Shown here piece after piece: positions 1 to 800 of a DNA stretch of 800 bases (within the stretch, counting starts at the first letter, position 1; every line of letters begins with the position of its first letter). The DNA is taken from the NCBI RefSeq assembly GCF_003334255.1, contig NZ_QOWU01000185.1. One strand, 5' to 3'. The notes beneath the pieces are model-generated. The model was not told the origin of the DNA. It made no database searches and saw only the letters and a program-made list of their open reading frames with translations. The DNA is from Escherichia coli. GTDB lineage: Bacteria > Pseudomonadota > Gammaproteobacteria > Enterobacterales > Enterobacteriaceae. Made by a program: the position numbers and the translations under genes.

Positions 1-800
1 CAGGTCTCGCCCAGCGTGGTGTTCACAAAGGTTTTCAGGCCGTTGGGATCTTTCAGTGCATCCAGCCAGTCATAGACTATCTGTACCCAGGTGGTGAACG
101 GACTGTACGCTGTCCAGATATGGAACGTGATGGAGCGCGGCGGCGGAATTTCATTATCCGCGGCGCTGAAAAACGTCAGACCGTCACGGGTCCACATCCC
201 CGTGTTTTCACAGATCCACCGCCCGTTGCTCTGGTCAAGCTCAGACTGATGGATCACGCAGCCATGATGTTCACAGAGGTAGAAAACGCTTTCGGGGCTG
301 TCCTTCTCCCATTTAAGGCCAAAAGGCGTGGATTCATCGCCAAATTTCAGATACTGCTCCTCCCCACAGTGTGGGCAGGGCACATAAAAACGCATGAAAT
401 GCGCCGACTCGTTGGCCGCTTTTTCGATCTGGCAGGTGCCTTTGATTTTAGGCGTCGAGCCGCGAATGGATTTGGGCCATACAGAGCCCTCAATACGTTT
501 ATCCCCAAGCAGGGTTGGCGAACCCTCTTTTTCGACATCCGGTTCGAACGAGGAAAGTTCGTCATAGCAGACCACGTCCACGGATTTTTCACGGTAGTTT
601 TTGGCGGCAGCGCCGCCCAGGCACCAGAAACCCACACCCGATGAAAAGCGTTTCAGCGTGAGGGTATTGTCACGATGTTTACGCCCCAGCCATGGAAAAA
701 GGTCTTTCAGACATGGCACATCCCGAATCGTCGCCTCCACGTGAGACTTCATAAAATCTTCAGCGGCAGAATCCGTGGGCTGAAAAAGCAGACTGTTTCG
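1..800 (-). CDS. terL: Phage terminase large subunit, lambda gpA-like (internal fragment, partial at both ends; roughly residues 99-365 of a ~640-aa protein)
   Basis: Reverse-complement frame starting at window position 800 is open for 266 codons plus 2 trailing bases, with no stop. The translation contains FMKSHVEATIRD, KHRDNTLTLKRF, GFWCLGG, AKNYREKSVDVVCYDEL, EGSPTLLGDKRIEGSVWPKSIRGSTPK, GTCQIE, HFMRFYVPCPHCGEEQYLKFGD, TPFGLKW, SVFYLCEH, TFHIWTAYSPFTTWVQIV and KTFVNTTLGETW, all of which match blocks of lambda gpA as I recall it, in the same order and spacing. Recognition is from memory of the lambda gpA sequence, not a database search. Confidence 0.95.

What the first reader, a model, noticed from the sequence alone, without database searches (positions are those of the whole stretch)
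33..74. Locally divergent segment near the C-terminal end of the window
The window encodes YDWLDALKDPNGLK here, whereas lambda gpA as I recall it has a more basic stretch at the equivalent place (KDWMKTKGDTGKRK), possibly with a one-residue length difference. The flanking blocks are near-identical. A surface loop or interdomain segment under relaxed or diversifying constraint would behave this way. This relies on my memory of the lambda sequence and is the weakest observation.
Basis: inference. Interest (0 to 1): 0.15.

Follow-up and report, generated by a model that had tools for sequence, protein, structure and literature searches.

The report
Terminase lid hairpin, phage-21 type
The flagged stretch is the tip of a small two-helix hairpin in the DNA-packaging enzyme of a phage-21-like prophage of E. 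coli; it really differs from phage lambda at 10 of 14 residues, but this is ordinary lineage divergence on a tolerant protein surface.

Summary
Window 33-74 (minus strand) encodes YDWLDALKDPNGLK, residues 341-354 of a lambda-family large terminase (TerL). Lambda gpA has KDWMKTKGDTGKRK at the same place. Only 4 of 14 residues match, against 72% over the window, and the flanks are identical. There is no length difference.

The window is a phage-21-type TerL from an E. coli prophage. All 21-type relatives carry the same 14 residues, apart from L/V/I at residue 353.

High-confidence AlphaFold models place the segment at the end of helix 336-346, a 3-residue turn, and the start of helix 350-361. 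This is the tip of the helical hairpin that Ortiz et al. 2019 proposed as the ATPase lid subdomain (W327-T364). It is not a floppy loop or an interdomain linker; the linker is 362-394. D342, the proposed partner of the Walker-A arginine, and the core-facing residues are kept. Seven of the ten changes fall on exposed or turn positions.

Across 112 distant homologues the segment is of average variability. It is conserved within each lineage, so I see no ongoing relaxed or diversifying selection. Verdict: real, ordinary, already known.

A side observation is unexplained: the lambda-type allele of this spot is a recurrent deletion end point in defective prophages.

The parts
3..800 (-). Internal part (residues 99-364) of a lambda-family large terminase (TerL, gpA/gp2 type). 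It runs off both ends of the window.
   Evidence: Single open frame. 98.5% aa identity to phage PhiR12_1 TerL, 94% to phage 21 gp2 and 72% to lambda gpA. 100% nt identity to TerL genes in many E. coli chromosomes. Pfam GpA_ATPase 48-293 and GpA_nuclease 323-601 match the full-length protein.
3..116 (-). Residues 327-364: the region proposed as the ATPase lid subdomain in lambda gpA (W327...D342...T364).
   Evidence: Ortiz et al. 2019, Table 1 (PMC6379665). The AlphaFold model has the last core strand at E321-326, then helices 336-346 and 350-361, then the linker.
33..74 (-). The flagged segment, residues 341-354, YDWLDALKDPNGLK: the tip of the lid helical hairpin, in its 21-type allele.
   Evidence: Translation. 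Alignment to lambda KDWMKTKGDTGKRK, 4/14 identical. Identical in phage 21, PhiR12_1, PhiR5_1 and D2.
57..89 (-). Helix A of the hairpin (residues 336-346, WVQIVYDWLDA).
   Evidence: DSSP on the AlphaFold model, with 10-residue block pLDDT 97 (331-340) and 95 (341-350). In the lambda model the helix ends at 344.
69..71 (-). Codon of D342, the acidic lid residue proposed to pair with the Walker-A arginine (R79) in the 'arginine toggle'. It is kept in both alleles.
   Evidence: Table 1 of PMC6379665. The position is E or D in 81 of 107 distant homologues.
48..56 (-). Three-residue turn (347-349, LKD). This is the site where relatives carry insertions.
   Evidence: DSSP. 47 of 112 family members have up to 7 inserted residues after 346.
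12..47 (-). Helix B of the hairpin (residues 350-361, PNGLKTFVNTTL), including the conserved K-T-F-x-N-T-x-L-G-E motif.
   Evidence: DSSP, with 10-residue block pLDDT 95 (341-350) and 97 (351-360). N358 and L361 are at least 90% conserved across 112 sequences.
558..575 (-). Walker B strand and catalytic glutamate (residues 174-179, VVCYDE), which mark the ASCE ATPase core that the lid covers.
   Evidence: E179 is invariant in 112 sequences. E179 is the catalytic carboxylate in lambda (PMC6379665).

Best explanation
The segment encodes the tip of a two-helix hairpin: the end of helix 336-346, the turn 347-349 and the start of helix 350-361. This hairpin forms the proposed lid subdomain of the packaging ATPase in a lambda-family large terminase.

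The window carries the phage-21-lineage version of the hairpin. Lambda carries the version of a sister lineage that is about 65% identical overall. Since their common ancestor (roughly xD[F/W]LKAKGDPxKLK), each lineage fixed about four or five substitutions here:
- 21 lineage: K345D, K347L, G348K, K352G.
- Lambda lineage: L344M, A346T, P350T, L353R, acquired stepwise.

Most of these fall on solvent-facing or turn positions. The residues that do the lid's work are kept: D342, the aromatic residue at 343, the hydrophobic residue at 344, D349, K354 and the flanking WxAYSP and KTFxNTxLGE motifs. The stretch looks like an island only because it sits between two of the most conserved motifs of the family.

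Mechanistically (inferred from other terminases, not shown here), the lid closes over the ATP site, its acidic residue trades the Walker-A arginine with the catalytic glutamate, and it touches the neighbouring subunit in the pentameric motor. The hairpin tip tolerates many sequences and net charges.
For: Shown by tools:
- Translation and an ungapped alignment to lambda.
- The closest relatives are 21-type TerL genes and E. coli prophages.
- High-confidence AlphaFold models of both alleles have the same helix-turn-helix.
- The fold matches Sf6, T4, HK97 and P74-26 terminases.
- Family column profiles show conserved core-facing positions (342, 343, 344, 346, 348, 349, 353, 354) alternating with variable polar ones (341, 345, 347, 350-352).
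- Segment entropy is average for the protein.
- The turn is an indel hot spot.
- Net charge of the tip ranges from -4 to +6 in the family, so both +4 and -1 are within range.
- There are only a few allele classes, each conserved within its lineage.
- Lineage painting shows that the segment state always follows the lineage.
- Intermediates on the lambda side (KDYFKTKGDPGKLK, KEFHKTLGDPGKRK) show stepwise change.
- Phage D2 combines a lambda-type ATPase core (58 to about 281) with a 21-type lid.

From the literature: the lambda lid is proposed as W327-D342-T364 (PMC6379665). Several basic lid residues of P74-26 are dispensable for DNA binding (PMC5389665). In ring models the lid contacts the neighbouring core (PMC9410871).
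Against: - The excess of substitutions over what site variability predicts (10 observed, 4.5 expected, pointwise P = 0.003) is the second largest in the protein. Some lineage-specific adaptation cannot be excluded.
- One lambda change (L353R) and one 21-type change (G348K) hit positions that the family usually conserves.
- The lid assignment and the role of D342 rest on a published model, not on a solved lambda structure. No PDB sequence homologue was found.
Confidence: 0.8

Rival explanations
1. Lineage-specific interaction surface. The charge-changed hairpin tip (+4 in lambda, -1 in 21 type) would be co-adapted with a partner and act as an additional specificity or compatibility determinant. 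Candidate partners are the neighbouring TerL subunit, the nuclease domain, TerS, DNA, or a host sensor that recognises terminase.
For: - There is a local excess of substitutions beyond site variability (z = 3.2).
- The net charge differs by five units.
- Tip charge weakly anticorrelates with charge at columns 186, 229 and 195 of the ATPase domain (r = -0.41 to -0.37; the 5% quantile of the shuffled minimum is -0.34).
- Lids contact the adjacent subunit in published ring models.
- Foldseek lists an Avs3-terminase complex, 8dgc, among the structural matches. That such host proteins bind the terminase fold is my background knowledge.
Against: - Columns 186 and 229 are the same residue in lambda and the window, so they do not compensate for this particular change.
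- Phage D2 pairs a 21-type lid with a lambda-type ATPase core.
- Family-wide the tip charge is unconstrained.
- By my recollection of work by Feiss and colleagues, the known lambda/21 terminase specificity domains lie at the extreme N and C termini. The other strong divergence islands lie there too.
Confidence: 0.1
2. One reading: a loop or interdomain segment under currently relaxed or diversifying selection.
For: Low identity to lambda, variable polar positions, and an indel hot spot at the turn.
Against: - The segment is an ordered helical hairpin with pLDDT 91-97 in both models. The true linker is 362-394.
- It is nearly invariant within the 21 class and within the lambda class.
- Family entropy is average.
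Confidence: 0.05
3. A small recombination patch: the 14 codons were imported from a third, more distant terminase lineage into an otherwise lambda-like region.
For: The flanking codons 326-340 are unusually similar to lambda at the nucleotide level (42/45 nt, against 68% overall). The segment codons differ at two or three bases each.
Against: - The whole window is 21-type, not lambda-like. Diagnostic-site painting shows no switch at the segment borders in any of about 100 sequences.
- Outgroups show each lineage contributing about half of the differences, with stepwise intermediates.
- The low synonymous divergence of the flanks rests on few codons, two of which are Trp.
Confidence: 0.03
4. 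Chance clustering of substitutions, with no local cause.
For: After correction for scanning, the signal is weak: P = 0.064 within the window and P = 0.25 protein-wide under the site-variability model.
Against: Six islands of 4/14 identity or less exist where about one is expected, so clustering in the protein is real. The island coincides with a structural element, the hairpin tip and turn.
Confidence: 0.02

Closest known systems
Phage 21 gp2 (large terminase subunit; OL657228, M81255)
   Same: The 14-residue segment and its 42 nt are identical. The window is 94% identical in protein and 89% in DNA. The gene order TerS-TerL-W-portal is the same.
   Different: There are sixteen amino-acid differences elsewhere in the window. 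The window's exact sequence is from E. coli prophages, and the closest isolated phage is PhiR12_1 at 96% nt.
Lambda gpA, proposed ATPase lid subdomain W327-T364 (Ortiz et al. 2019, PMC6379665)
   Same: Same position with no gaps, the same predicted helix-turn-helix, the same D342, W343, D349 and K354, and identical flanks 324-340 and 355-364.
   Different: Ten of 14 residues differ. Net charge is +4 in lambda and -1 here. In the models, lambda's helix A ends two residues earlier and the tip has slightly lower confidence (pLDDT 91 against 95).
Lid subdomains of solved terminases: P74-26 TerL 221-251, T4 gp17 N-subdomain II 314-357, Sf6 gp2 173-210
   Same: Same topological place, after the ASCE core and before the flexible linker to the RNase-H-like nuclease. 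They are helical and carry an acidic residue proposed to pair with the Walker-A arginine. The whole-protein fold matches.
   Different: There is no detectable sequence similarity. The lambda family has a Cys-rich insertion in the ATPase domain. Residue-level structural equivalence of the hairpin tip was not obtained here.

Membership tests
Lambda-family large terminase (Pfam GpA_ATPase PF05876 + GpA_nuclease PF20454) | Significant match to both Pfam models | tested here: met
   PF05876 E = 7.5e-55 (residues 48-293) and PF20454 E = 7.6e-71 (323-601) on the PhiR12_1 protein, which is 98.5% identical to the window. Database relatives of the window carry both families.
Lambda-family large terminase (Pfam GpA_ATPase PF05876 + GpA_nuclease PF20454) | Walker B strand followed by the catalytic glutamate (E179 in lambda) | tested here: met
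   VVCYDE at residues 174-179 lies inside the window. E179 is invariant in 112 homologues.
Lambda-family large terminase (Pfam GpA_ATPase PF05876 + GpA_nuclease PF20454) | Gene order TerS (Nu1) - TerL - head-tail joining W - portal | tested here: met
   E. coli 7/2 locus, 100% identical to the window: terminase small subunit, TerL, head-tail joining protein, portal, S49 peptidase.
Phage-21 lineage of the lambda family (as opposed to the lambda lineage) | Carries the 21-type residue at sites that distinguish 21-type from lambda-type proteins | tested here: met
   94% aa identity to 21 gp2 against 72% to lambda. All 21-class sequences carry the window's residue at the segment's ten diagnostic positions, apart from V or I for L353 in some, and no lambda-class sequence does.
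ATPase lid subdomain of viral terminases | Helical element directly after the last strand of the ASCE core and before the flexible linker to the nuclease domain | tested here: met
   AlphaFold: strand 321-326, helices 336-346 and 350-361, lower-confidence stretch 361-380, nuclease strands from 395. The lambda model has the same layout.
ATPase lid subdomain of viral terminases | Acidic lid residue that pairs with the Walker-A arginine in the apo state | tested here: inconclusive
   D342 is present and the column is acidic in 76% of homologues. Its contact with R79 could not be checked because no coordinates were available, and in lambda it is a proposal from a model.
ATPase lid subdomain of viral terminases | Rotates on ATP binding or hydrolysis and contacts the neighbouring subunit in the ring | not testable with these tools
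   Known for P74-26, Sf6 and HK97 models only.
Interdomain linker / disordered surface loop | No regular secondary structure, low model confidence, protease-sensitive | tested here: not met
   Only 3 of the 14 residues are non-helical, and pLDDT is 95-97.
Hypervariable or diversity-generating region | Many alleles among otherwise closely related sequences | tested here: not met
   One conservative variable site (L/V/I 353) in the 21 class, down to about 87% identity. There are three near-identical variants in the lambda class. No repeat that could serve as a template was found in the window.

The most novel reading that the evidence does not exclude
The hairpin tip of the terminase lid would be a third, so far unrecognised, lineage-specific contact surface of lambda-family terminases, beside the N-terminal TerS-binding and C-terminal portal-binding domains. 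Its charge switch between lambda (+4) and 21 type (-1) would be matched by a partner surface, either on the neighbouring motor subunit or on a host defence sensor. In that case it would limit which terminase modules can be recombined, or which hosts can be escaped.
Probability: 0.08. Interest if true: 0.4.

Novelty: already known. Interest (0 to 1): 0.1.

Why it matters
In itself it matters little. The sequences of lambda gene A and phage 21 gene 2 have long been public, and the difference described is ordinary divergence between two terminase lineages.

The useful by-product is a natural mutagenesis result for the packaging motor. The 21-type enzyme lacks several of the basic residues found in the lambda hairpin tip. 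The family as a whole tolerates net charges from -4 to +6 there. A conserved electrostatic or DNA-binding role for the tip in this family is therefore unlikely. By contrast, D342 and the hydrophobic face are the parts to mutate when testing the lid and arginine-toggle model.

The recurrent deletion end point in the lambda-type allele may deserve a separate look.

Tried and rejected
- **PDB sequence search:** the full-length protein found nothing at E <= 1. Structural placement therefore rests on AlphaFold and Foldseek.
- **NCBIfam:** no match to the 266-aa fragment.
- **RNA families and repeats:** the Rfam scan of both strands gave only a sub-threshold DicF hit (20 bits against a gathering score of 48, E = 0.09, window 589-618), taken as noise. 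No inverted repeats were found, and the one 12-nt direct repeat is likely chance.
- **Mosaic patch:** rejected by diagnostic-site painting.
- **Hypervariable or DGR-type target:** rejected by within-lineage invariance.
- **Compensating charge changes elsewhere:** a few weak anticorrelated columns (186, 229, 195) turned up, but they do not differ between lambda and the window.
- **Solvent accessibility and contacts of D342:** I wanted to measure these, but model coordinates are not exposed by the tools.
- **Within-21-class dN/dS:** not informative, because the available 21-class genes are identical in these 42 nt.
- **Junction follow-up in 5,426 complete E. coli genomes:** each tested junction type is rare or absent there. 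A'::E is in 1 genome. A'::stf had three full-coverage hits, but as two pieces spanning 477 nt for a 300-nt query, so not contiguous. A'::J is in 0 genomes. Prevalence could not be established.

Full report
**What is in the window.** Of the six reading frames, only the minus-strand frame starting at base 800 is open across all 800 bases (266 codons, window 3-800). The other five frames contain stops. No other ORF of 20 codons or more overlaps these bases. An Rfam scan of both strands found nothing above threshold. A repeat search found no inverted repeats and one likely chance 12-nt direct repeat.

**Where it comes from.** The DNA is 100% identical to chromosomal genes annotated as phage terminase large subunit in many E. 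coli genomes. A match exists in 1,924 of 5,426 complete genomes. In E. coli strain 7/2 the gene lies in a prophage with the order lysis genes, terminase small subunit, this gene (642 aa), head-tail joining protein, portal, S49 peptidase. Among isolated phages the best DNA matches are PhiR12_1 (96%) and phage 21 gene 2 (89%). Lambda is too distant for megablast. Pfam finds GpA_ATPase (48-293) and GpA_nuclease (323-601) on the full-length protein. The window is therefore residues 99-364 of a phage-21-type member of the lambda terminase family.

**Checking the observation.**
- I fetched lambda gene A from J02459 and aligned it. Window residues 99-364 align to lambda 99-364 without a gap.
The suspected length difference does not exist.
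- Identity is 4/14 in the segment, 72% over the window and 65% over the full protein. Residues 324-340 and 355-364 are fully identical.
- At the DNA level the window is 68% identical to lambda. Most changed codons in the segment differ at two or three bases.
- Net charge of the segment is +4 in lambda and -1 here.

**Is it more than chance?**
- The segment is the lowest-identity 14-mer in the window. Shuffling the mismatch positions gives a 14-mer this poor in 6.4% of trials.
- In the full-length comparison there are six non-overlapping 14-mers with 4/14 identity or less: 8-21, 340-353, 375-388, 529-542, 611-624 and 628-641. About one is expected, so substitutions are clustered and this is one of several islands.
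- I modelled the chance of a lambda/21 mismatch at each site from that site's variability in 107 distant homologues. The segment should then have 4.5 mismatches and has 10. Pointwise P is 0.003 and z is 3.2, second only to 372-385. A z this high somewhere in the protein arises in 25% of simulations.
- The local excess is therefore real but modest.

**What the segment is structurally.**
- No solved structure is detectable by sequence. A 2022 paper also states that the lambda gpA structure is unknown (PMC9410871).
- An AlphaFold model of the E. coli 7/2 protein, built on 112 homologues, has mean pLDDT 94.8. It shows strand 321-326, helix 336-346, a three-residue turn 347-349 and helix 350-361. 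A less confident stretch follows (pLDDT 84-90 for 361-380), and the nuclease domain strands begin at 395.
- The flagged residues are thus the last six residues of helix A, the turn, and the first five residues of helix B. Block pLDDT there is 95-97.
- A model of lambda gpA has the same layout. Helix A ends at 344 and confidence at the tip is slightly lower at 91.
- Foldseek matches the model to Sf6 gp2, T4 gp17, HK97 TerL and the P74-26 ATPase domain.
- Ortiz et al. 2019 proposed W327-T364 as the lambda ATPase lid subdomain. They proposed D342 as the acidic residue that holds the Walker-A arginine R79 in the apo state, the 'arginine toggle' (PMC6379665, Table 1).
- The segment is therefore the tip of the lid hairpin, not a loop or an interdomain linker. 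The linker is the next island, 362-394, which lies mostly beyond the end of the window.

**Family view.**
- A search of 1.84 billion cluster representatives found 8,202 relatives. I aligned 107 full-length ones with the five named proteins.
- The consensus of the region is V-x-E-F-L-x-A-x-G-D-x-x-x-L-K-T-F-x-N-T-x-L-G-E.
- Conserved and variable columns alternate as expected for amphipathic helices. The conserved or hydrophobic columns are 342 (E/D in 81 of 107), 343 (F/W), 344 (L), 346 (A), 348 (G), 349 (D), 353 (L/M) and 354 (K). Columns 341, 345, 347 and 350-352 are polar and variable.
- Mean entropy of the segment is 2.37, against 2.35 for the whole protein. Of all 14-mers, 47% are at least as variable.
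- The turn is an indel hot spot: 47 of 112 sequences have up to seven extra residues after 346.
- Net charge of the tip ranges from -4 to +6, with mean +0.8 and SD 1.9.
- Of the ten lambda/window differences, seven lie at variable or turn positions. Two are conservative changes at core-facing positions (L/M 344, A/T 346). The last is L353R, where lambda departs from the family.

**Close relatives and direction of change.**
- Among about 100 enterobacterial relatives there are few alleles: YDWLDALKDPNG[L/V/I]K in the 21 class, and KDWMKTKGDTGKRK, KDWLKT... (phi80) and KEWIKT... (Klebsiella) in the lambda class. A handful of intermediates also exist.
- Painting each sequence at the 168 sites that distinguish the two lineages shows two clean classes. 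The segment always follows the class, with no switch at its borders.
- Outgroups suggest an ancestor close to xD[F/W]LKAKGDPxKLK. The 21 lineage changed K345D, K347L, G348K and K352G. The lambda lineage changed L344M, A346T, P350T and L353R.
- The intermediates KDYFKTKGDPGKLK and KEFHKTLGDPGKRK show that the lambda changes accumulated stepwise.
- Lambda versus phi80 shows two synonymous changes and one conservative replacement in these 14 codons.
- This is the pattern of old, fixed lineage differences under purifying selection. It is not the pattern of relaxed or diversifying selection.

**Does the tip need a matching partner?**
- Phage D2 has a mosaic TerL: 21-type residues 1-57, lambda-type 58 to about 281, and 21-type from about 282 to the end. 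It therefore combines a lambda ATPase core with a 21-type lid.
- A scan for charge covariation between the tip and other columns found weak anticorrelation at 186, 229 and 195 (r about -0.4, just beyond the shuffled 5% limit). Columns 186 and 229 carry the same residue in lambda and the window.
- In P74-26, several basic lid residues are dispensable for DNA binding, although R235 matters for ring assembly and ATPase activity (PMC5389665).
- I therefore rate a co-adapted interface as possible but unlikely.

**Verdict.** Its explanation is mundane. It is a phage-21-type allele of the lid hairpin tip of TerL, sitting between two highly conserved motifs. The functionally implicated residues are kept and the changes fall mostly on tolerant surface positions. 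It is already known sequence in a well-studied enzyme family.

**Side observation (not in the window).**
- Many lambda-type TerL entries in the databases are fusions in which gene A breaks off and continues into unrelated sequence. The largest cluster of break points is at residues 349-351, inside the lambda allele of this very segment.
- In four loci read at the DNA level, the A part ends at ...AAAGGGGAT|A(C), which is lambda nt 1757-1759.
- Counting protein-level fusions as well, there are at least eight different partners: two points in E, two in J, tail-fibre genes, gpA's own codon 519, and IS1 insA. Microhomology at the joins I could map to lambda is short; the longest is the 6-nt repeat GGATAC at gpA codon 519.
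- The loci are defective lambda-like prophages in natural isolates.
- None of 38 21-type proteins breaks at 349-351.
- Each junction type is rare or absent among 5,426 complete genomes.
- I have no mechanism for a fixed left end point with variable right end points.

Noticed in passing
Homologous position in lambda-type genes (lambda nt 1757-1759, gpA codons 349-350); loci L012:5047, L013:4047, L015:4047, L017:1151. It corresponds to window 45-50 but is not seen in the window's 21-type allele.: The lambda-type allele of the hairpin tip is a recurrent left end point of deletions in defective lambda-like prophages. A' always ends ...AAAGGGGAT|A(C) and is joined to at least 8 different partners (E twice, J twice, tail-fibre genes, gpA codon 519, IS1 insA) with short microhomology. 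Nine of 67 lambda-type proteins in my sample break at residues 349-353, and none of 38 21-type proteins breaks at 349-351. Each junction type is rare in complete genomes. The mechanism is unknown.
   Followed up: partly
L004:423-2348 (phage D2, OM475427): The phage D2 TerL is a natural mosaic: 21-type residues 1-57, lambda-type 58 to about 281, 21-type from about 282 to the end. A lambda ATPase core therefore sits in a 21-type terminase.
   Followed up: partly
window 258-377 (-), residues 240-279: A Cys-rich insertion in the ATPase domain (C240-P-H-C243 ... C274-E-H-H-G-C279) is predicted as short beta strands. C240, C243 and E179 are the only invariant columns in 112 homologues, and C274 is more than 90% conserved. 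It looks like a zinc ribbon, but I did not test this.
   Followed up: no
window 75-119 (-), codons 326-340: The conserved block just upstream of the segment is 42/45 nt identical to lambda, against 68% for the window. Synonymous divergence there is lower (about 0.2-0.3 of identical codons differ, against 0.5 on average). The numbers are small and two of the codons are Trp.
   Followed up: partly
L008:4820-4861 (residues 372-385 of the full protein, just beyond window base 1): The strongest excess of lambda/21 substitutions in the whole protein (11 observed, 5.2 expected, z = 3.4) lies in the lower-confidence linker between the lid and the nuclease domain.
   Followed up: partly
window 589-618 (+): Sub-threshold Rfam hit to DicF RNA (20 bits against a gathering score of 48, E = 0.09), on the strand opposite the coding frame. 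It is most likely noise.
   Followed up: no
Proteins P0004, P0005, P0012-P0014, P0020, P0023 and others: Many top database 'representatives' of this family are long fusion proteins (800-1150 aa) made of an N-terminal TerL fragment and tail or capsid gene fragments. Family alignments built blindly from such hits would be corrupted, so I filtered them out by length and coverage.
   Followed up: yes
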